Shown here piece by piece: positions 1,774 through 22,010 of a stretch of 64,000 nucleotides of DNA. Location of the stretch: positions 4,217 to 68,216 of the IMG/VR virus record IMGVR_UViG_3300033146_004475; one strand, 5' to 3'. The DNA comes from a virus. Within the stretch, counting starts at the first letter, position 1; the number at the start of each line of letters is the position of its first letter. A model generated the notes under the pieces. That model ran no database searches. It was not told the DNA's origin and saw only the letters and a program-made list of their open reading frames with translations. Made by a program: the position numbers and the translations under genes.

Positions 1774-4700
1774 ATGGCTTCAGATGTCAAAAAAACAGTA
1801 GAAATTGCTTTAAAAATTGTTGGTGTTGATTTAGATAAATTAAAAACAATATCTACTGCTTTTGAAAATATTCAAAAGGCTGCGGATAATGCTACTAAGT
1901 CTTTAAAGAAGTTCAATGATGAATTTAAGAAAATAAAGACTCCTATTGGATTAGGAAAAGTCATAACTTCTTTAACGGAATTAAGTAAGTTAAAGATGCC
2001 TAATTTAAACAATATAGCTATTGGATTTAAAAAATTAGGAGAAATGAAATCAGTTCCTGATTTAAGTAAGTTTGTTCCAGAGCTTAAAAAATTAGAAGGC
2101 ATAGATATTCCAAAAGTAAATTCTCTTGCTACAGGCTTGAAGAATTTAATGGCTATAAATTTTAGTGGATTTTCTAAGAAGATTGCAACAATTGAAAAAG
2201 GGCTAAGGAAATTAGCTGATATAAATTTAGATAAACTTACGGAAACTTTAAAACACCTTAATACTTTAAATTTAAAAAAAGCTGCTGCTGAATTACGAAG
2301 TTTAAACGAAGCAATGAAGAAAACAGGCACCACTGCCCAAACTACAGGGTTACGTTTAAGGACTTTTTCTGATAAAGTTAAGACTGTTTTAGAGTTTAGA
2401 CTTATATCAGATGCCTTGGTTGCTTTAAAAAGATTAATTATTAATGGAATTGGTGCAATAATTGATTATAGTCAATCTTTAAAAGATCTACAAGCTATTA
2501 CGGGGGCAACCACTCTTGAAGTTGCCCAAATGGGAAGTAAGATACTTGAGGTTGCTTCCACAACAAAGTTCTCTGCTTCTGAAGTTGCTCAAGGAATGCG
2601 AGTTATTGGACAGGCTGGTTTTACTGCAACAGAAGCAGTTGAAACAATGCAATCAGTAGCCAACCTTGCTACTGGAACTCTGTCTTCAATGGCAACTACA
2701 GTTGATCTTGTTACAACAGCAATGAGAGTTTTCCAAATAGATGCTTCTCGATCAACTGAAGTTTCTGATGTTTTCGCTAATGCAGTAAATAGATCAAAAC
2801 TCACCATTGATAAATTAAGAACAGCAATGAATTATGTTGGTCCTATTGCAAGAGATTCTGGTGTTTCTTTTAAGGAACTTGCAGCTTCAATGGGAACATT
2901 AGCTAATTCAGGTTTAAGGGCCAGTACAATTGGTACAGGACTTAGAAGAGTTTTTGCTGAACTTGTTGATCCATCTAAAAAATTAAAAGCAGCAATAAAA
3001 GATTCAGGAGTAGCAATTGAAGAACTTGACCCCAGGGCAAATAGTTTATCTTCTGTATTAAGTAATTTAAGTATTGTGGTAGATGATGCTGCAATTGCTT
3101 TTGATGTTTTTGGAAAAAGAGGGGCATCTGCTGTTTTAGCTCTTACCAATGAACAATCAGGATTTGATTCTATGTTAGCAACTGTTTCCGAATCAGGAAC
3201 AGCAGCGTGGCAAGCATCAATACAAATGGAAGGTCTTGGTGTTTCTTTTAAGAATATGCGAGATAAGGCTGGAATTTTAGCTATTGCGATTGGAGAATCA
3301 GGGCTAAATAAGGCAATGAAATTATTTGTTGACACTGTCCGGTTGATGATTGATGGCCTTACCTATTTTGTAAATACAACAGTAGGGCAAGTTGTAACAG
3401 GATTTGGATTAATAACAGCAGCAGTATTACCTTTAGTTGGAGCTTTTGTGAAATTAAAAATAGCTGCTGTATTTTCCAGTATTGTTGCTAGTGTACAATT
3501 GATGGCAGCCGAATTTGCATCATTTGCTATTTTAGCAGAAACCACAATAGTAGGGTTAGCTGCAACTATCGGGGCAGTTTTGGCTCCAATTGCAGCAGTT
3601 ATAGCTGGAATTTCATTACTGGTTTGGTGGTTAGGTAAAGCTAAAAAAGCAGCCGAAGAAACTGCAAAACTATCTGATCAATATCAATCTCTATCAAAAT
3701 CTATGCAGGATTACTCTGTAAAGGTAGCTTCAATAGCAAAAAATACAAAAGAGTTCACAGACGCAAATAAAGCACTTAGAACAAGTCTTTTGCAGACGGC
3801 TGATGCTTATTCTGATGTTTCTACTGAAGCTTTGGCAGCAGCTTTAAGTATTGACCCTTTAACCGGAAAAATTAAAGAGGGAAGTACAGCAATTGATCTA
3901 TACAATAAAAAATTAGAGGAAGTTGCTAAAAATAAATTGGTAATGGCTGCAAATGCAGCAAATGATAGTTTTGATCAATTACGATTGCCACTGGCAGAGT
4001 TAGATGAATTTGGAGTAGCTGCTGATTCAGTTGGTGCACAATTTAAATTAATGAAAACTTACGTAGCCCATTTGGATGAAAAACTCGGGAATTTAAGTAG
4101 GAATGATCAAAAAATTATTTTAGAATTTCATGCAATGGAAGAAATGGCAGGAAAAGTTCTTGTAAACATGCAAAAACTTGGGAAAGTTAATCTTGATGAT
4201 ACTGTACAAAATTTTACAAGACTTGCAAAAGCAGAAGGGTATTCTGGAGAAGTATTAGGAGCTATTATTGATCAGTTTAAGGAGTTAAAAGAGATAAATA
4301 GCAAAACACCTAAAAATTTAATTGAAAAATGGTCAGAAGATGGGACTGATTCTTTATCTGAATTATTTAAAGAATATGAAAATTTGTCTAATGAGTTTGG
4401 TGAAGGAAAAGGAATATTTGGAGTCGATGAACAAGGAGTAAGTGAAAAATCAATAATTATACAAACAGAAGCAGCTAAGAAAAGTTTAAAAATAAAATAT
4501 GATGCTTTGAATGCTGAAACAGCAGCGTTAATTGCTAATGGAAAAGATGAGGAAGCTATGTGGAGAAGGCATCAAGAAAAAATGAACATTCTTGATGCAG
4601 AAGCAGCCGATATTCGTATTACATTATCAAAAAATGTAGCATATCAGAATTTAGTTATTTTGGCTTCTGAAAAAGAAAAATTGAAAAAGAAATTAGATGA

Positions 4701-15957: not shown

Positions 15958-16188
15958 ATGGAATCATTATCAGATTTACTATCAGTAGAACGAGAAACAT
16001 CGTCTAAGATAGTGACGATAAAAGCCCAAGTAAGTAGTACAGCTTATTCTGTTGTTGATAAAAAGAATAGACAGTACATTGTAGAATCAGCAATAATATA
16101 TTTACCTGGAACTTTAGTAGTTATTAAAAATGGTGTTATAATTGGGAAAACCAAAAGTTCTCAAAATTATAAGGAATACAGTCTATGA
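15958..16188 (+). CDS. Hypothetical small tail protein
   Basis: Abuts neighbouring genes. Confidence 0.45.
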   Translation: MESLSDLLSVERETSSKIVTIKAQVSSTAYSVVDKKNRQYIVESAIIYLPGTLVVIKNGVIIGKTKSSQNYKEYSL

Positions 16189-16622
16189 AAGTTTTAAGAA
16201 ACATTGACATCCTACATCCATTATTGATTAAAAGTGTTAAAATAATCCAATCAGAAATTATTGATAAACACAATTTTCCTATTAGATTATTTGAAACAGG
16301 CAGAAATCATGATAGGCATGAGTTATTAATTAAAAAAGGAAAAACAAAAGATCCAATTTCAGGTCATTTATATAATTTAGTCCACATTCCGCCTTTGTAT
16401 CCAACTGCTGTTGATTATGTATATTACGATTCTAAATGGTCATGGAATTTAAGAGATTCTACAATAAAATCCTGGTATAATTTGTTTGGTAATTTAGTTT
16501 TGGATTTGTGTCCGGAACTTCAATGGAGTGGTGAAAATAGAAAAGCAGTTAATCTTTGTCATTTTGCACTTAAAAGGGATTCAATTATTGCACATTTAGA
16601 TTATATTCCTTGTGTAGTGTAA
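16185..16622 (+). CDS. M15C-like (L-Ala-D-Glu) peptidase homologue
   Basis: FETGR...SGHL...AVD...LQWSG...CHF pattern resembles M15 endolysins. Confidence 0.55.
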   Translation: MKVLRNIDILHPLLIKSVKIIQSEIIDKHNFPIRLFETGRNHDRHELLIKKGKTKDPISGHLYNLVHIPPLYPTAVDYVYYDSKWSWNLRDSTIKSWYNLFGNLVLDLCPELQWSGENRKAVNLCHFALKRDSIIAHLDYIPCVV

Positions 16623-16985: not shown

Positions 16986-17015
16986 TCATACTATATATCA
17001 AAAAAGGATAAATTC

Positions 17016-17189
17016 ATGCTTATTTCAAATTTAATTACTAATTGGGTAGGGCCATGGATGACAACTTGGGCAAAACCTTCATCATATACTCCCTCTTGTG
17101 CTGCTCCTGTTGATTTTACTTGTTTGATAGATGGAGTAGAAAATGAGATAACAGACGATAATGGCATATTCATTGTTGTTCCAGAATAG
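17016..17189 (+). CDS. Small hypothetical protein (57 aa, absent from ORF track)
   Basis: AAGGA RBS; MLISNLITNWVGPWMTTW...IVVPE*; fills the gap before the LamG gene. Confidence 0.55.
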   Translation: MLISNLITNWVGPWMTTWAKPSSYTPSCAAPVDFTCLIDGVENEITDDNGIFIVVPE

Positions 17190-17198
17190 GAGGACAAA

Positions 17199-18539
17199 AT
17201 GACAAGGATTCTTTCGGACGTATTAAAAGATGATATGGATATTGATACTACTGACAGTGAGGTATTGAAATTTGGTGGTGTGGATGATCATGTTGAAATT
17301 AATAAATCAACTGGACATTTCAAATTAAAAGGAGATGCTGCTGTTTTTGATGATATGAGAACAAGCCCTCTGAGTGCAGCAAACACAGGAGCAAGAAGTC
17401 CTGCTCTTGAAACAGTAGCTAATGATGGATCAGTTGGAGAAGATTACTGTGTTGATTTTACAGGAGGTCATGGATTAATATCATCATACACTAATTTAAA
17501 TAGCACGGATGAATACACAGTAGAGTTTTGGCTTAATCCAGATAGTGTACAAAATGCAGTATTATTCTGGAGAGATGCGTTTATTGAAATCAGTGTTGCT
17601 TATAAGGATGTTGTAGTTTCAATAGATAATAGCTGGAATGTAAGAAGTAATGATGGTTTAGTTGCAGGACAAACACAGCACATAGTTGTTACAATAGATT
17701 ATGATGGGTCTAGCACAAATATTTATATTTATGTAAACGGGCAAGAAATACATAATGATTCTGTTTGGGGCAAACAGTTAGCTGCCAGTACAAGTGATGT
17801 TTATATTGGGTCAAGACCAAATGGAAATAAGGCTTTAGATGGTAGAATAGATAATCTTATATGTTATAACAAAGCATTAACTCAAGCACAAGTCACGGAA
17901 AGATACAATAATGGGGGAGGCACTACAGTAGTTCCTACTGGGATTGTAGAATCAACTGATGTTGTGATGAGATTTGACTTTGATGAGGGTTCAGGTTCAA
18001 CCGTTGATAATGGCTGTACTCTTGGAGCAGGAGAAGATATGACTTTGAGTAATTCTTACGATTGGGTTGAAGGATTACTTGGTACTACAACCGGATCACT
18101 TGGTGTCATGGCTTTAGCTTTTGTCCCAAGTGTTATAACAGAGATATTTGGGTCAGTACAATTTAGTCATAAATATAAAGAAGGCACAATTATATATCCC
18201 CATGTTCATTGGGCAAGTCCTGATCTTCTTGTAGGGGATATTGTATGGAAACTTGAGTATTTATGGGTAAATGTAGGAGGTATACTGCAAGCAAATACTA
18301 GCATGGTTTCCAGAACAGTTGCTAATAATACTGTTACTGCTGGATTGCATAGAATGACAAATATTCCATTAGCTGGAATAGCTGGAACAGGTATGAAAAT
18401 TTCAAGTGTTTTGCAGTACAGATTATACAGAGATGGTGCAGATGCTGCCGATACTTATACAGGAAAAGTTTATTTAAGTGAATTTGATATTCATTTTGAA
18501 GTTGATACTATCGGGTCTAATACTGTTGGTGTCAAATAA
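17199..18539 (+). CDS. Receptor-binding/fibre protein with LamG (concanavalin A-like) domain
   Basis: YTVEFWLNP...QHIVVT...IYVNG...LDGRIDNLICYNKALTQAQV...FDFDEGSG LamG_3 pattern. Confidence 0.75.
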   Translation: MTRILSDVLKDDMDIDTTDSEVLKFGGVDDHVEINKSTGHFKLKGDAAVFDDMRTSPLSAANTGARSPALETVANDGSVGEDYCVDFTGGHGLISSYTNLNSTDEYTVEFWLNPDSVQNAVLFWRDAFIEISVAYKDVVVSIDNSWNVRSNDGLVAGQTQHIVVTIDYDGSSTNIYIYVNGQEIHNDSVWGKQLAASTSDVYIGSRPNGNKALDGRIDNLICYNKALTQAQVTERYNNGGGTTVVPTGIVESTDVVMRFDFDEGSGSTVDNGCTLGAGEDMTLSNSYDWVEGLLGTTTGSLGVMALAFVPSVITEIFGSVQFSHKYKEGTIIYPHVHWASPDLLVGDIVWKLEYLWVNVGGILQANTSMVSRTVANNTVTAGLHRMTNIPLAGIAGTGMKISSVLQYRLYRDGADAADTYTGKVYLSEFDIHFEVDTIGSNTVGVK

Positions 18540-18543
18540 GAGT

Positions 18544-18681
18544 AACCACCCTGTAATTTTTATCTCTCCCCTTGAGTCGGCCAAGGAAAAATTACAGGAA
18601 TCCAGACAGCAAGAAGTAGACTTCTTGGTATTTTGAGATTTGGCTTCTCAAAATCACTTCTTGTACTGTCTGGTGGTTTTT
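18544..18681 (+). ncRNA. Multi-stem structured intergenic element (ncRNA or attenuator/terminator)
   Basis: AACCAC/GTGGTT closing stem, CCTGTAATTTTT/AAAAATTACAGG, CCAGACAG/CTGTCTGG, CAAGAAGT/ACTTCTTG, ATTTTGAGA/TCTCAAAAT; ends in T run. Confidence 0.55.
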
Positions 18682-18787
18682 AGTTTAATGAAATTCTTGC
18701 TTTTACTTTCGTTAAATGATAGATTTCAAAATAAAGTAGGACGTTGTTTTATAATTGATGATGTAACTTTAGATTGGACTATTTACA

Positions 18788-19054
18788 ATGGATGATAAAA
18801 TAATTGATCGGGTATTTTCTGAATTAGATAACCATTCCAGTAGATTAGTAGATTTATCTGAAATTGTCCATGCAAATGCTGCAATTTTAGGAATGGTATC
18901 AAAACTTGTTGTAGCTATAATTTTATTTATAGTTATTACAAGTTTAGGTACTTTTTATAATTACTTTACTAAAGGTCCTGTACTATATCATAGACAAATT
19001 ATACCAATTGAAAAAGGTGTTGTCCCAGGGGACCAATCAAGGGGAGGTTCCTAA
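18788..19054 (+). CDS. Single-TM holin-like membrane protein
   Basis: Coiled N-terminus plus one hydrophobic segment LVVAIILFIVITSLG; first gene of lysis-like cassette. Confidence 0.5.
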   Translation: MDDKIIDRVFSELDNHSSRLVDLSEIVHANAAILGMVSKLVVAIILFIVITSLGTFYNYFTKGPVLYHRQIIPIEKGVVPGDQSRGGS

Positions 19055-19055
19055 A

Positions 19056-19790
19056 ATGTCACTTACTTCCGTTCGTAATTTTTTAATTTCTTTTTTTAAT
19101 CCTGATATAGCTGCAAGTATTTTAGTAGACGAGATAAAAGAGCAAAGAAACCGAATCAAAAACTTGAAAGAAGAGTACAAATCATTATCAAAATGGAATC
19201 ATCAATATGTATCTACTTTAAGTTTATTAACTGAAGCAATGGAAGCTTTAATATGGAAAAAAGATAAAAATCATAAATATATTTTAGCTAATCCTTTGCA
19301 TTGTAAAACTTTTTTTGGGTATGATAAAGCATATGATTGTTTAGATTCTATTGTAGGCAAGACAGATAACGAATTAATTGAATTAAATTTTGAACAGTTA
19401 GGCATACAAAATACATTCGGTAAAGTTTGTTTAATTTCAGATACATTTACAATGTTGAATAAAGGAGCATCTCATTTTTTAGAAGCAGGAATGGTTGATG
19501 GAAAAGAATTTTTATTTTACTCCGTAAAAACTTCACAGTTTACAAGTAAAAATGAGTTTGTTGGATCAATAGGAATGGCTTGGGATTTGACAAATCAATC
19601 TGATTTTTTAATAAGTCAACTAAATAGATGGATATATGCAAAAAAAGTAACTAAACTATTCCATAAAAAAGATGTATTTTGTTATGCAATAACGCCTGAA
19701 ATTAGAAAATGTAGTGTATTTCACCATCTTTGTCCAGATCCAGAAAGAGGAAAAGTATGTGATGATAATTGTAGTTCTTATTTTGACTAA
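19056..19790 (+). CDS. PAS/PAC-domain protein with Cys-rich C-terminus
   Basis: IWKKDKNHKYILAN...IVGKTDNEL...VKTSQFTSKNEFVGSIGMAWDLT matches PAS_4/PAC pattern; GGAGG RBS before ATG 19056. Confidence 0.7.
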   Translation: MSLTSVRNFLISFFNPDIAASILVDEIKEQRNRIKNLKEEYKSLSKWNHQYVSTLSLLTEAMEALIWKKDKNHKYILANPLHCKTFFGYDKAYDCLDSIVGKTDNELIELNFEQLGIQNTFGKVCLISDTFTMLNKGASHFLEAGMVDGKEFLFYSVKTSQFTSKNEFVGSIGMAWDLTNQSDFLISQLNRWIYAKKVTKLFHKKDVFCYAITPEIRKCSVFHHLCPDPERGKVCDDNCSSYFD

Positions 19791-19801
19791 AAGAGGTTAA
19801 A

Positions 19802-20332
19802 ATGATTAATTGGGATTATGTATATAAATTAAAAGCTGCTGAATTTTCTGAAGATCCAAATAAATATGCTGAACCAGAATTAATTTATTCTTTAGGAAAA
19901 TTTAGAAAATTAAATAAATCATGTATGTATCCTTCCCCTGTACGAGGAGCCTTGGCTCGTTTTTCCGGAAGTAAAACATCTCAACATTTTGTAGGAAGTG
20001 CCATAGTTAGAAAATCAACTGCAAGTGATATTTTTATAGAAAATAGTGCTTTTAAAAATTATACTAATATTCTTAGTTCTGGTCTTTTTAATGGCATTGG
20101 TATTTATTTAGATACAGTAGGACCTGATGGTCTTCCTTGGATTTTATTTCATCTTGATATCAGGCCCAATACATCAAAAACCCCAACCCCATTAATTTGG
20201 ATAGTTATTAAAGAATATAGTGAAGTAAGAAAAAAAGTAGTGAACCGATATCTATATCCACAAACTAATTTTAAATACTGGAGTTTACTTAATGATTCAA
20301 GATTCCATTTTAACAAAAAGTTCGGTTCTTGA
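19802..20332 (+). CDS. Peptidase M15A-like endolysin
   Basis: SQH...ASDI...GIGIY...FHLDIR zinc peptidase motifs. Confidence 0.7.
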   Translation: MINWDYVYKLKAAEFSEDPNKYAEPELIYSLGKFRKLNKSCMYPSPVRGALARFSGSKTSQHFVGSAIVRKSTASDIFIENSAFKNYTNILSSGLFNGIGIYLDTVGPDGLPWILFHLDIRPNTSKTPTPLIWIVIKEYSEVRKKVVNRYLYPQTNFKYWSLLNDSRFHFNKKFGS

Positions 20333-20475
20333 GGGACATAAAAAGTTAGTTAAATTGATATCTGAGGAGTCAACATTGCTGGAAAAAACAACATCCCCTG
20401 CAATAATTAAAAGACACACCAGAATATTAGATTTTTTACTTGAATTACAAATACACACATCAAGGGGGTTAATAC

Positions 20476-21009
20476 ATGAAGAGAATCAATCTTAATTCTT
20501 GCTCTAATGAACTTCATTTTCCAATTACACAAGCATTGCCAACTGAAATTGTTACTGGATTTTTTAAAAGAGTTTGGAATTTTTCAACTTATAAAAGAAA
20601 ATTTAAAGTAAGAAAAGATTATTGTTTATATGTTCCTTCTATTTCAAAATGGATATTTATTCCCAAATATTTTGTTTTTGATGGAGCAAGTGTTCCAAAA
20701 TTCCTTAATTGGTTATATAATCCTACTGGAATGTTATTATTAGGTGCAACTCCACACGACTTTGGATATAGATACAAAGGATTAATTCATATTGACCACA
20801 AAGGAAAATTAAATTTTGTTTCTTATACCAAAAAGGAACTTGATAAGATATTTGGTAATTTATGTTCTTATGAAAGTGGAATGCCTACTGCATCTAATGT
20901 AGCAACTAAAACTTTGGGATTTGTAGGGTTTATTGGGTGGAAACAAAATAGAAAAATAAACCATGTTTTAGAAAAAGATTTTCCTGAATTGTTCGTGCCA
21001 AATAATTAA
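20476..21009 (+). CDS. DUF1353-like protein
   Basis: IPKYFVFDGASVP...HDFGY...ELDKIF motif. Confidence 0.7.
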   Translation: MKRINLNSCSNELHFPITQALPTEIVTGFFKRVWNFSTYKRKFKVRKDYCLYVPSISKWIFIPKYFVFDGASVPKFLNWLYNPTGMLLLGATPHDFGYRYKGLIHIDHKGKLNFVSYTKKELDKIFGNLCSYESGMPTASNVATKTLGFVGFIGWKQNRKINHVLEKDFPELFVPNN

Positions 21010-21115
21010 ATGATAGTTATCAGAAACATAAAAAATGATAGAAGAAAGTTTCTTTACACGGCTTATTTTCCAGAAAGAAGAAAAAAAGAAAGAAGAAAAA
21101 AAGAAAGGAGAAAAA

Positions 21116-21367
21116 ATGGAAGAGTTAATTAATCTCATAATATCAGGGCATTATTCTGATTGGTTTTTTGATACATTTTTAACACAATTTACCATAGCAA
21201 TAAAAAATAATTTAGCGTTTCTTTTATTATTTGCTATGGTTTTCAAAAAATTATCCAAACTTACAACGAACAACTTAGATGATAAAATCATAGATTGGAT
21301 AATTGTTAAATTAATAGGATTTAAAAATCCAACAAAAGAAGGAGAAAAACATGAACTTGAAAAGTAA
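21116..21367 (+). CDS. Holin-like membrane protein
   Basis: AAGGAG RBS before ATG 21116; hydrophobic helix followed by LTTNNLDDKI. Confidence 0.55.
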   Translation: MEELINLIISGHYSDWFFDTFLTQFTIAIKNNLAFLLLFAMVFKKLSKLTTNNLDDKIIDWIIVKLIGFKNPTKEGEKHELEK

Positions 21368-21719
21368 AGCGGTCTTGTATTATCTATTGATTATTTGTTT
21401 GATGGTGGTGCAGGGATGTGTTATGTCGAATAAGAAAAATATAACAACTGCATACAGTGTGTATAATTCTCAATATGCAATGTACATGACTGACACAGGG
21501 CATGTATTGACTGAGAGAGGGGATTGGGAAAAAGTCACTAACCCTGTTTTATCTACGGAGAAAAAAGAGTTACTTAGGAAAAAGAAAAATATTCTAAGTC
21601 AAATTTATCCATTAATAAAAGTATATGATTCTATGTTAATTGGGACAACTCCTTTTTCTGAAAAAACTGAACGTGATTTATTTAATTTAATTGACCAATT
21701 AATTTTATTGACTAATTAA
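21351..21719 (+). CDS. Lipoprotein (possible spanin-type lysis protein)
   Basis: Signal peptide ending VVQGC lipobox. Confidence 0.55.
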   Translation: MNLKSKAVLYYLLIICLMVVQGCVMSNKKNITTAYSVYNSQYAMYMTDTGHVLTERGDWEKVTNPVLSTEKKELLRKKKNILSQIYPLIKVYDSMLIGTTPFSEKTERDLFNLIDQLILLTN

Positions 21720-21745
21720 TTTTATTGGCCAATTAAGGAGGAAGT

Positions 21746-21904
21746 ATGGGACCAGCAATTGTAGAACTTTTGAAAATGTCCATTGGGGTTTATTTTTCTT
21801 TGGCTAAGTTGCATGGTGCTTCGGAAGCTGAATTAGATGCAATTTATCAAACAGAGAAAGATAAATTCGAGAACAATGATCCAAGTAAATTAGAAGATGT
21901 ATAA
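21746..21904 (+). CDS. Small hypothetical protein (52 aa, absent from ORF track)
   Basis: AAGGAGG RBS; MGPAIVELLKMSIGVYFSLAKLHG...LEDV*. Confidence 0.65.
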   Translation: MGPAIVELLKMSIGVYFSLAKLHGASEAELDAIYQTEKDKFENNDPSKLEDV

Positions 21905-21946
21905 CGCTTTTAAAGCACTTTTATAGAAAACTGATACTAACATACT

Positions 21947-21994
21947 AAAACACGCTCAATCTCTTTAAAAACATAACAGAATTGAGCGTGTTTT
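21947..21994. terminator. Bidirectional terminator between convergent arms
   Basis: AAAACACGCTCAAT ... ATTGAGCGTGTTTT, 14-bp arms at the strand switch. Confidence 0.75.
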
Positions 21995-22010
21995 GTTATT
22001 TTGAACTATT

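What the first reader, a model, noticed from the sequence alone, without database searches (positions are those of the whole stretch)
18788..21904. PAS sensor protein embedded between holin-like gene and endolysin: candidate signal-gated lysis system
Seen: order is single-TM holin-like gene, a coupled 244-aa protein (coiled coil, PAS/PAC motif, C-terminal CSVFHHLC...VCDDNC), M15 endolysin, DUF1353, second holin-like gene, lipoprotein. The PAS protein has no kinase, GGDEF or HTH output domain. Established: PAS domains sense ligands, redox or oxygen. Inference: a stand-alone sensor acting on the holin or endolysin to time lysis with host redox or metabolic state. I know no described lysis cassette like this.
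Basis: partly seen in the sequence, partly recalled or inferred. Interest (0 to 1): 0.75.

Follow-up and report, generated by a model that had tools for sequence, protein, structure and literature searches.

The report
Membrane-paired PAS sensor in phage lysis cassette
An uncultured tailed phage encodes, right before its cell-wall-cutting enzyme, a sensor-type (PAS) protein with conserved cysteines and a small membrane partner; similar arrangements sit beside lysis genes in other, unrelated phages, so it probably ties host bursting to an internal signal, though nothing has been tested.

Summary
The ORFs lie at the stated coordinates on a 68-kb IMG/VR siphovirus contig. The 244-aa protein (19056-19790) has a PAS fold: AF2 pLDDT 79.5, Foldseek top hits VqmA at E 7e-7, VIA Z up to 11.1. 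Its family profile reaches Pfam-PAS proteins. It has no kinase, GGDEF or HTH domain.

It is not truly stand-alone. The upstream 88-aa one-TM protein is tightly coupled to it in 7 of 7 loci. One relative has the two fused, and distant relatives carry their own TM segments.

A wall hydrolase lies within 0-2.2 kb in every context examined, in four enzyme types: LAS-fold p176, M15_3, GH108 and GH19. This includes the cultured Cellulophaga phage phi14:2.

Cysteines C83, C95, C125 and C219 are conserved across the superfamily and suggest a metal or redox site.

My best reading (about 0.5) is a membrane-tethered cytoplasmic sensor that tunes holin triggering, working like T4 lysis inhibition but built from different parts. 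Function, ligand and partner binding are untested.

This scan has already noted the same family and similar PAS-lysis arrangements on other DNA (e1-5713244, e1-6190911, e1-6019345). Five full-text searches found no paper describing it.

The parts
18610..18636 (+). Terminator-like hairpin with a T run between the fibre gene (stop at 18539) and p88. It probably marks the upstream border of the cassette's transcription unit.
   Evidence: 7-pair stem, 3 GC pairs, T-rich tail. Three such sites were found in the region against 1.3 expected. This is a consensus match only.
18788..19054 (+). p88, an 88-aa single-pass membrane protein. It has a conserved N-terminal helix (res ~5-39), a TM core at 40-57 and a variable C-tail. 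It is the dedicated partner of the PAS protein and a candidate holin or membrane anchor.
   Evidence: Its family has 34 members, none named and none with a Pfam hit. It lies directly upstream of the PAS gene in 7 of 7 loci. It is fused to the PAS protein in P0025.
19040..19047 (+). Shine-Dalgarno-like AGGGGAGG, 8 nt before the p244 ATG and inside the end of p88.
   Evidence: sequence read directly.
19056..19790 (+). p244, the PAS protein. It has an N-terminal long helix, a PAS core, a C-terminal helix-hairpin extension and a Cys/His tail.
19101..19241 (+). p244 residues 16-62: a single long helix, coiled-coil-like, leading into the PAS core.
   Evidence: helix 16-62. Weak bZIP, geminin and myosin coiled-coil matches appear. 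In phi14:2 gp089, P0052 and P0056 the equivalent helix follows directly after TM segments.
19245..19586 (+). p244 residues 64-177: the PAS core, with superfamily-conserved C83, C95 and C125, plus H140.
19590..19787 (+). p244 residues 179-244: helix, beta-hairpin and Cys/His tail (C219, H224, C226, C235, C239). This is a candidate second metal site or a lid over the PAS pocket.
   Evidence: pLDDT below 50 for residues 215-244..
19802..20332 (+). p176, a divergent LAS-fold (M15-like) zinc-peptidase candidate and the probable endolysin.
   Evidence: No HMM hit.
20292..20495 (+). p67, a small overlapping ORF of unknown role with no hydrophobic segment. It is conserved in L002 and L003.
20476..21009 (+). 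p177, a DUF1353 protein with an H-D pair at residues 94-95. It is a candidate phospholipase A2-type lysis accessory.
   Evidence: 2.7e-8. Passages of PMC11525133.
21035..21367 (+). p110, a small protein with one hydrophobic segment (res 52-70). An internal ATG at 21116 would give 83 aa. It is a holin or spanin-type candidate and is not conserved in the four loci searched (L002-L005).
   Evidence: No family hit.
21351..21719 (+). p122, a putative lipoprotein (signal-like N-terminus ending ..QGC) and spanin-type candidate.
   Evidence: There is an orthologue in L002.
21746..21904 (+). p52, the last small ORF before the strand switch at about 22000. It is conserved in L002.

Best explanation
p88 and p244 form a two-piece, membrane-tethered cytoplasmic sensor that belongs to the phage's lysis cassette.

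p88 supplies one transmembrane helix. By charge bias and by the fused relatives its topology is probably N-out/C-in. p244 supplies a long coiled-coil-like helix, a PAS domain and a cysteine-rich C-terminal extension.

The PAS domain probably holds a metal or redox-active site built from conserved cysteines: C83, C95 and C125 in the pocket-forming helices, and C219 from the C-terminal extension. It would report an intracellular condition such as redox state, oxygen or metabolic state.

Through the long helix the signal would reach the membrane part. That part either is the hole-former itself or binds and restrains the real holin in the manner of an antiholin. This would advance or delay release of the LAS-fold endolysin p176. 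The DUF1353 phospholipase candidate and the lipoprotein would then finish envelope disruption.

Shown: the PAS fold, the absence of a classical output domain, the conserved pairing with a TM protein, the repeated adjacency to wall hydrolases of four different families, and the conserved cysteines.

Inferred: physical binding of p88 and p244, the topology, the cofactor, the signal, and any effect on lysis timing.
For: PAS fold. The AF2 model has mean pLDDT 79.5, with 10-residue block means of 81-94 over the core. Foldseek against the PDB gives 64 matches at E<=1e-3; the top 8 rows are VqmA chains at E 7e-7 to 2e-5, followed by PAS and LOV domains. VIA found 34 of 48,161 chains at Z>=8, best 7dwm_B at Z 11.1; nearly all rows shown are titled PAS, LOV or sensor domains. 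The family profile hits 2431 proteins at E<=1e-3. In 4 of 10 hits scanned the proteins carry Pfam PAS families, overlapping the matched stretch where compared (P0064). The nearest ESM Atlas clusters are viral PAS_4 proteins of 211-234 aa, with TM 0.64-0.67 over residues 11-215.

Pairing with the TM protein. A p88-like gene lies 10 nt or less upstream of, or overlaps, the PAS gene in 7 of 7 loci: the window, L002, L003, L004, L005, L006 and L009. Nine of the 19 rows in the PAS-family list share their longest-contig length with a row of the p88-family list, and one pair has adjacent NCBI locus tags. P0025 is a p88::PAS fusion (BLASTP 2e-8; hhalign probability 90%). P0052 and P0056 carry N-terminal hydrophobic segments, and phi14:2 gp089 has a TM at residues 7-27 before its coiled coil and PAS domain.

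Lysis linkage. In the window and in L002, L003, L005 and L006 the next gene is the LAS-fold p176 type, with a gap of 11 nt down to an overlap of 29 nt. In L004 a GH108+PG_binding_3 gene lies 315 nt upstream with only the TM gene between. In L009/L008 a Peptidase_M15_3 gene (Pfam 1.2e-10; phrog_894 endolysin 1.8e-13) lies 7 nt downstream, in a phage whose other neighbour is an RNA polymerase beta' fragment. In L010, a 287-kb contig, a GH108 gene lies 2.2 kb away and the ORF directly upstream matches phrog_199 holin at 5.1e-5. In phi14:2 a GH19 gene (1.6e-11) overlaps by 4 nt.

Cysteines. C83 is present in 33/34 family members and 38/44 distant short relatives, C95 in 33/34 and 22/44, C125 in 30/34 and 35/44, and C219 in 33/34 and 28/44.

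Defence models. PADLOC gives no hit for p88 or p244.
Against: No experiment exists. All functional inference rests on gene neighbourhood and architecture.

L002, L003, L005 and L006 are relatives of the window phage with the same gene order, so they are not independent. Independent contexts number four: L004, L009/L008, L010 and phi14:2. Two of them carry only distant PAS relatives. phi14:2 gp089 against the family profile gives hhalign E 0.0066 and probability 5.7%, and its Pfam PAS_4 score of 22.8 bits is just under the 23.1 cut-off.

p88 matches no holin family. In these searches it was seen only together with the PAS gene, so it may be an anchor rather than a hole-former.

The P0025 fusion is a singleton from one 4,950-nt contig and could be an assembly or frameshift artefact.

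The cysteines could be structural zinc ligands, or, if the domain were periplasmic, disulfides. Position 140 is His in this family but mostly Arg in distant relatives.

PAS domains can be plain interaction modules without a ligand.

The endolysin call for p176 rests on a fold match of Z 7.9, below the tool's own caution line of 8, with no HMM support.
Confidence: 0.5

Rival explanations
1. p244 is a gene-expression regulator. It would be a VqmA-like ligand receptor that lost the HTH and uses its Cys/His tail as a zinc-finger-type nucleic-acid-binding or polymerase-binding element to switch late or lysis gene expression, with p88 holding it at the membrane until a signal arrives.
For: The best structural matches are VqmA and phage VqmA. 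The tail has a conserved C-x4-H-x-C...C-x3-C pattern that could bind zinc. In L009 the cassette sits beside an RNA polymerase beta' fragment. Membrane-tethered transcription factors are known (my own knowledge).
Against: No HTH or other DNA-binding family was detected. The region after the PAS core is modelled as one helix, a hairpin and a disordered tail. The Cys tail beyond C219 is missing in the distant relatives, which still sit next to endolysins. The conserved neighbour is the endolysin itself, not a promoter region or a regulator target.
Confidence: 0.12
2. p244 acts on the endolysin rather than on the holin. It would be a chaperone, inhibitor or activator that keeps the cytoplasmic wall hydrolase inactive or delivers it to the membrane.
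For: The PAS gene directly abuts or overlaps the hydrolase gene in 7 of 9 contexts. A chaperone gene upstream of lysA is known in mycobacteriophage Ms6 (my own knowledge, not retrieved here).
Against: The adjacent hydrolases belong to four unrelated folds or families (LAS-like p176, M15_3, GH108, GH19), which argues against a specific protein-protein fit. In L004 the hydrolase is upstream and in L010 it lies 2.2 kb away on the other strand. The constant partner is the TM element.
Confidence: 0.1
3. The pair has nothing to do with lysis. It would be an accessory cargo at a module boundary, for example superinfection exclusion, host-signalling takeover or counter-defence, and it only tends to land near lysis genes.
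For: Module ends next to lysis genes are common sites for accessory genes (my own knowledge). p88 and p244 have no characterised relatives.
Against: The position is kept immediately beside the hydrolase in phages with quite different surrounding genes (tail fibre, RNA polymerase fragment, jumbo-phage membrane proteins, crAss-like structural block). Translational coupling into the hydrolase gene is seen in several. PADLOC gives no hit.
Confidence: 0.12
4. p244 is a structural or assembly factor of the tail-fibre module that merely has a PAS-like fold.
For: In the window it follows the Laminin_G_3 fibre gene. The neighbouring DUF1353 protein is labelled 'tail assembly chaperone' in PHROGs.
Against: A terminator-like hairpin separates it from the fibre gene. 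In L009 and L010 there are no tail genes nearby. The MS/MS-based 'structural protein' notes in the phi14:2 record do not include gp089. The DUF1353 founding member is a phospholipase A2 (PMC11525133, passages).
Confidence: 0.03

Closest known systems
Phage T4 lysis inhibition: holin T with antiholins RI (periplasmic) and RIII (cytoplasmic). ICP1 TeaA/ArrA is a second example.
   Same: Lysis timing is gated by a signal through small proteins that act on a single-TM holin and are encoded with or near the lysis genes. T has a small cytoplasmic N-domain, one TM helix and a periplasmic domain (abstract of PMC11413866). ICP1 has a holin/antiholin pair mediating lysis inhibition (abstract of PMC7182436). 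This is what the p88/p244 pair would work like.
   Different: There is no sequence or fold relation. The T4 signal is superinfection, sensed in the periplasm. Here the sensor is a cytoplasmic PAS domain with conserved cysteines, and neither holin activity of p88 nor binding has been shown. RIII's role is stated from my own knowledge.
VqmA quorum-sensing receptors (Vibrio cholerae VqmA, PDB 6ide/6ugl/6kju; vibriophage VP882 VqmA, PDB 7dwm)
   Same: These are the best structural matches to the PAS core (Foldseek E 7e-7 to 2e-5; VIA Z 11.1, rmsd 3.5 over 116 residues). One of them is a phage-encoded PAS receptor that decides when the host is lysed (abstract of PMC8284805).
   Different: VqmA is PAS plus a DNA-binding domain and acts on transcription in a temperate phage. 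p244 has no HTH, shares 15-21% identity, has a membrane partner, and sits inside the lysis cassette of what appears to be a lytic siphovirus.
Cellulophaga phage phi14:2 gp089 'PAS domain-containing protein' with gp088 glycoside hydrolase (GenBank KC821624)
   Same: It has the same architecture in one chain: a TM at residues 7-27, a coiled coil and then PAS_4. Its gene overlaps the endolysin gene (GH19) by 4 nt. This phage is cultured and so is a usable experimental model.
   Different: It is only a distant relative (hhalign E 0.0066 to the family profile). It lacks the C-terminal Cys/His tail and the pocket cysteines, its hydrolase family differs, and no function has been reported in the papers searched.
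Iron-sulfur PAS oxygen sensors such as staphylococcal NreB (recalled, not retrieved here)
   Same: Four cysteines associated with a cytoplasmic PAS domain could hold a redox- or oxygen-labile cluster.
   Different: NreB is a histidine kinase. The cysteine spacing differs, and no cofactor has been shown for p244.

Membership tests
PAS fold superfamily | Five-stranded antiparallel beta-sheet flanked by helices (the PAS fold) | tested here: met
   The AF2 model has strands 64-70, 75-78, 138-147, 150-162 and 168-177 with helices between them. Foldseek gives E 7e-7 to 1e-3 to PAS and LOV entries. VIA gives Z 8-11 to 34 chains.
PAS fold superfamily | Match to a Pfam PAS model above the gathering score | tested here: not met
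   No PAS family appears even at E<=1 for p244. However, the family profile hits proteins whose matched stretch overlaps Pfam PAS_4 (P0064, P0055, P0050), and the nearest Atlas clusters are 85-95% PAS_4.
VqmA-type receptors | C-terminal helix-turn-helix DNA-binding domain after the PAS domain | tested here: not met
   Pfam gives no HTH. Residues 179-244 are modelled as one helix, a hairpin and a low-confidence tail.
Holins (for p88) | Small protein with at least one TM segment, encoded in the lysis cassette | tested here: met
   One hydrophobic stretch with core at 40-57. A wall hydrolase lies within two genes in 7 of 7 loci.
Holins (for p88) | Membership of a described holin family, or demonstrated lethal hole formation | tested here: not met
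   No Pfam, PHROG or NCBIfam hit. Hole formation is not testable with these tools.
Antiholin-type regulators (for p88/p244) | Physical binding to the holin and a shift of lysis time | not testable with these tools
   This needs bench work. See Tried and rejected for the modelling attempt.
Peptidase M15 / LAS zinc peptidases (for p176) | LAS/hedgehog-type fold | tested here: inconclusive
   The model has pLDDT 95.7. LAS/hedgehog-fold entries fill the top 8 VIA rows and 10 of the top 12, but the best Z is 7.9 (1lbu, 108 residues aligned, rmsd 3.6), under the tool's caution line. The best Foldseek E is 0.14, to VldE.
Peptidase M15 / LAS zinc peptidases (for p176) | His, Asp, His zinc ligands | tested here: inconclusive
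   H62, D76, H117 and D119 are invariant in 33 sequences. A weak hhalign to the L009 M15_3 protein aligns the S-x-H and S-D-I-F stretches (E 0.022). Their equivalence to the ligands of solved enzymes was not checked residue by residue.
Peptidase M15 / LAS zinc peptidases (for p176) | Match to Pfam Peptidase_M15_3 or M15_4 | tested here: not met
   No hit.
DUF1353 / TtaP-type phospholipase A2 (for p177) | Pfam PF07087 above the cut-off | tested here: met
   33.8 bits against a cut-off of 22.5, E 2.7e-8.
DUF1353 / TtaP-type phospholipase A2 (for p177) | Catalytic His-Asp dyad (D85 in TtaP) | tested here: inconclusive
   An H-D pair at residues 94-95 lies inside the Pfam match (translation). It was not aligned to TtaP here. 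The paper's passages name D85 as part of the dyad.
Cysteine-ligated metal/Fe-S PAS sensors | Conserved set of Cys (or His) ligands and a bound cofactor | tested here: inconclusive
   The Cys columns are conserved. Whether they come together in space and bind anything could not be tested, because no model coordinates were available and the tail has low confidence.

The most novel reading that the evidence does not exclude
A widespread, undescribed class of phage lysis control. A cytoplasmic PAS domain holding a cysteine-ligated metal or Fe-S centre reads the host's redox, oxygen or energy state. Through one rigid helix it directly gates a dedicated single-pass hole-former, either split as p88+p244 or fused as in phi14:2 gp089, P0025 and P0056. 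Siphoviruses, crAss-like phages and jumbo phages would then choose the moment of bursting from a chemical signal inside the cell rather than from holin accumulation alone.
Probability: 0.25. Interest if true: 0.8.

Novelty: new variant of a known kind. Interest (0 to 1): 0.62.

Why it matters
Lysis timing sets burst size and phage fitness. The only well-studied signal-dependent lysis control is lysis inhibition in T-even phages and ICP1, which senses superinfection. If a PAS sensor wired into the lysis cassette works as proposed, phages would read the host's internal state to decide when to burst. The module recurs in very different phages, including a cultured crAss-like Cellulophaga phage, so the question can be tested directly at the bench. 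It could also supply a compact, ligand- or redox-switchable lysis module for synthetic biology. The neighbouring DUF1353 gene adds a candidate phospholipase step to Gram-negative lysis.

Tried and rejected
Complex modelling of p244 (alignment A1) with p88 (alignment A6) returned 'no answer': best score 0.24, under the mark of 0.32, and controls were not run. It is not used as evidence either way.

Context comes only from the loci the other tools could fetch.

tblastn of p244, P0045, P0048 and P0059 against GenBank phages found nothing, even at E<=5 for p244. blastn of window 17000-22000 also found nothing.

The genome-contig scan found no relative, so no prophage copy or host clue emerged. The metagenome scan added only a 2.7-kb contig (L006) and a second copy of the L002 contig. 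Viral scans with P0022, P0028, P0025, P0048 and P0040 found nothing.

No sequencing run was listed for window 18500-22000, and no RNA holder was listed.

PDB sequence searches were uninformative. The A1 profile gave only coiled-coil noise at E>=0.26, and p176, A2 and A5 gave nothing useful.

Foldseek against the PDB gave no match at E<=1e-3 for p176. The LAS reading comes from the VIA search.

PADLOC and NCBIfam gave no relevant hit for any cassette protein.

Searches of the phage's own record with PF08291, PF13539, PF00959 and PF05838 found nothing. The record is about 74% complete, so this does not show absence.

I first took H140 to swap with Cys in distant relatives. The wider alignment shows the Cys aligns with position 139 and that position 140 is mostly Arg there, so that argument was dropped.

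My notebook says at least 13 contig-length coincidences between the p88 and p244 lists. A recount gives 9 of 19 rows, and the report uses 9.

Table S1 of PMC11525133 (domain partners of DUF1353, said in the text to include a lysozyme domain) could not be seen.

Five full-text searches for a description of PAS proteins in lysis cassettes returned nothing relevant. The library lacks most subscription journals.

Full report
WHAT THE WINDOW IS. The window is bases 4217-68216 of a 68,216-base IMG/VR virus record estimated to be 74% complete, with GC of about 30%. The + strand from 141 to about 21900 carries a siphovirus tail module: a major tail protein (phrog_807, 9.4e-58), a 1718-aa tape measure protein, tail-tip proteins and a Laminin_G_3 fibre protein at 17199-18539. 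At about 22000 the coding strand switches. The finding therefore lies at the far end of the late operon, where siphoviruses usually keep their lysis genes (my own knowledge). A terminator-like hairpin at 18610-18627 with a T run separates it from the fibre gene.

CHECK OF THE OBSERVATION. p88 (18788-19054) has a single hydrophobic stretch. p244 starts at ATG 19056, one base after the p88 stop, behind AGGGGAGG. Homologues begin at the equivalent residue, so the 244-aa form is preferred over the 260-aa TTG alternative.

Pfam sees no PAS domain in p244 even at E<=1, but three lines of evidence establish the fold:
- An AlphaFold2 model built on 18 homologues has mean pLDDT 79.5, with 10-residue block means of 81-94 over the core. 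It shows a 47-residue helix (16-62), a five-stranded PAS core (64-177), a further helix (179-194), a hairpin (198-212) and a low-confidence tail.
- Foldseek against the PDB gives 64 matches at E<=1e-3. The eight best rows are VqmA chains (E 7e-7 to 2e-5), followed by PAS and LOV domains. An independent VIA search of 48,161 chains gives 34 with Z>=8, the best being phage VqmA 7dwm_B (Z 11.1, rmsd 3.5, 116 residues aligned).
- At sequence level, a profile of the family finds 2431 proteins at E<=1e-3 among 1.84 billion representatives. Of 10 hits scanned with Pfam, 4 carry PAS families and 2 carry GAF; for P0064 the matched stretch overlaps PAS_4. The nearest ESM Atlas clusters are viral PAS_4 proteins of 211-234 aa with the same overall shape (TM 0.64-0.67 over residues 11-215).

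No kinase, GGDEF, EAL or HTH domain is present.

The 'M15 endolysin' p176 has no HMM or PDB sequence match. A pLDDT 95.7 model has LAS/hedgehog-fold proteins in its top 8 VIA rows and in 10 of its top 12: Zn DD-peptidase 1lbu (Z 7.9), Sonic hedgehog N-domains, VldE, the endolysins Ply500 and LysB4, the T5 L-alanoyl-D-glutamate peptidase, MepA and VanY. H62, D76, H117 and D119 are invariant in 33 sequences. I read it as a divergent LAS-type peptidase. The Z value is under the tool's caution line, so this is probable rather than proven.

DUF1353 is confirmed for p177. p110 has one hydrophobic segment and p122 a signal-like N-terminus ending in Cys. Neither has a family match.

THE PAS PROTEIN HAS A MEMBRANE PARTNER. 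Related loci were fetched from viral and metagenome contigs. In the window and in L002, L003, L004, L005, L006 and L009, that is 7 of 7, a gene for an 80-117-aa protein of the p88 type lies immediately upstream of the PAS gene, with spacing from a 4-nt overlap to a 10-nt gap.

The p88 family shares a conserved N-terminal helix and one TM segment. The C-tail is variable and is missing in L009.

A profile search finds 34 members, none named. Nine of the 19 rows of the PAS-family list share their longest-contig length with a p88-family row, and one pair carries adjacent NCBI locus tags.

One representative, P0025 (347 aa), is a fusion. Its residues 8-58 match p88 (BLASTP 2e-8; hhalign probability 90%) and the remainder is the PAS protein. 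It is a singleton from one 4,950-nt contig, so an artefact cannot be excluded.

More distant relatives carry their own N-terminal hydrophobic segments. My reading is three in P0052 and three in P0056; the 19-residue hydropathy scan scores three regions in P0052 and two in P0056. There is one in P0050.

Charge bias in p88 (N-side net -3, C-side net +2) and the order TM-then-PAS in every fused form both fit an N-out/C-in topology with the PAS domain in the cytoplasm. This is inference.

THE PAIR TRAVELS WITH WALL HYDROLASES OF DIFFERENT KINDS. In the window-type phages (window, L002, L003, L005, L006) the next gene is the p176 type. These share ancestry and count as one observation. There are four independent contexts:
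- L004 has GH108+PG_binding_3 (9.4e-21) directly before the TM gene.
- L009/L008 (127-kb and 53-kb contigs) have the order RNA polymerase beta' fragment, a 151-aa protein, an 83-aa TM protein, the PAS protein, then Peptidase_M15_3 (Pfam 1.2e-10; phrog_894 'endolysin' 1.8e-13) 7 nt after the PAS gene.
- L010 is a 287-kb contig. The TM-fused PAS gene overlaps an upstream ORF that matches phrog_199 'holin' (5.1e-5), and a GH108 gene lies 2.2 kb away with only membrane proteins between.
- Cellulophaga phage phi14:2 is a cultured crAss-like phage. gp089 (TM at residues 7-27, coiled coil, PAS_4 at 1.1e-4) overlaps gp088 (GH19, 1.6e-11) by 4 nt.

The constant elements are the TM part, the long helix, the PAS domain and some wall hydrolase. 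The hydrolase family varies (four types), as does everything else around the genes. That pattern points to a role in the lysis process rather than a fit to one enzyme.

CONSERVED CYSTEINES. In an alignment of 34 family members and 44 short distant relatives the counts are:
- C83: 33/34 and 38/44
- C95: 33/34 and 22/44
- C125: 30/34 and 35/44
- C219: 33/34 and 28/44

The family proper adds H140 (30/34), H224 (29/34), C226 (31/34), C235 (28/34) and C239 (29/34). C83, C95 and C125 lie in helices between the second and third strands, the region that in PAS domains lines the ligand pocket (my own knowledge). C219 follows the C-terminal hairpin. A cysteine-ligated metal, Fe-S or redox-active site is a reasonable inference. 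I could not test whether the residues meet in space.

MECHANISM. The only element besides the PAS domain is the membrane part, joined through one long helix, so I take the membrane part to be the output. The pair would be either a PAS-gated hole-former or a PAS-controlled antiholin-like brake on another holin; p110 is a candidate in this phage. Either form would set the moment at which p176 reaches the wall. This works like T4 or ICP1 lysis inhibition (abstracts of PMC11413866 and PMC7182436) but with unrelated parts and an intracellular signal. Confidence is about 0.5. The rivals are a gene-expression regulator (0.12), an endolysin chaperone or regulator (0.10), non-lysis cargo (0.12) and a structural or assembly role (0.03).

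COMPARISON WITH WHAT IS KNOWN. p244 is not a VqmA family member, because the defining HTH is absent. It belongs to the PAS fold superfamily by structure and profile, though not by Pfam threshold. The arrangement exists unremarked in GenBank (phi14:2 gp089/gp088), and this scan has already noted the same family (e1-5713244, e1-6190911) and other PAS-lysis arrangements on other DNA. Five full-text searches found no paper that describes a PAS protein as part of a lysis cassette. The only phage PAS receptor discussed is VqmA of VP882 (PMC8284805, abstract).

SIDE OBSERVATION THAT STRENGTHENS THE CASSETTE READING. The founding DUF1353 protein, TtaP, has phospholipase A2 activity that depends on a predicted catalytic-dyad residue, D85. 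The authors expect other DUF1353 proteins to share the activity and note prophage DUF1353 relatives (PMC11525133, passages). p177 has an H-D pair inside its DUF1353 match, so a lipid-cutting lysis accessory is more plausible than the PHROG label 'tail assembly chaperone'.

VERDICT. The thing is a split, membrane-tethered PAS sensor module of phage lysis cassettes. It is a new variant of regulated lysis, untested at the bench, and a cultured phage is available to test it.

Noticed in passing
window 20476-21009: The DUF1353 protein p177 carries an H-D pair (res 94-95) inside the Pfam match. The DUF1353 founding member TtaP is a phospholipase A2 (PMC11525133). This suggests a lipid-cutting lysis accessory, and the PHROG label 'tail assembly chaperone' (phrog_1158) looks doubtful.
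   Followed up: partly
window 16185-16622: A 145-aa protein inside the tail module matches phrog_465 'endolysin' (1.5e-6) and is conserved in L002 and L003. It is probably a virion-associated wall hydrolase, a second one besides p176.
   Followed up: partly
window 20292-20495: A 67-aa ORF overlaps the end of p176 and the start of p177. It is conserved in L002 and L003 by tblastn (55-74% identity), has no hydrophobic segment and no family match.
   Followed up: partly
window 18610-18636: A terminator-like hairpin plus T run lies between the fibre gene and p88, inside the structured stretch that another first-stage note (e1-6180888) flagged as a multi-stem RNA.
   Followed up: partly
L004 3385-4419: A reverse transcriptase (phrog_1423, 5.2e-94) lies two genes upstream of the GH108 endolysin. 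It may belong to a diversity-generating retroelement.
   Followed up: no
L009 4284-6170: An RNA polymerase beta'-like fragment (PF04998, 2.1e-14; phrog_25354, 1e-34) sits next to the TM-PAS-M15_3 triad, and an RRXRR/HNH endonuclease lies at 2321-3676 on the other strand.
   Followed up: no
proteins P0030, P0050, P0064: Longer proteins end in the same PAS-plus-extension unit after GAF or other PAS domains, and P0050 also has an N-terminal TM. The unit is therefore also used as a terminal module of multi-sensor proteins.
   Followed up: no
L012 19230-19808 (phi14:2 gp087): The gene after the GH19 endolysin encodes a 192-aa protein with an N-terminal TM (res 1-28). It is a possible spanin-type component.
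   Followed up: no
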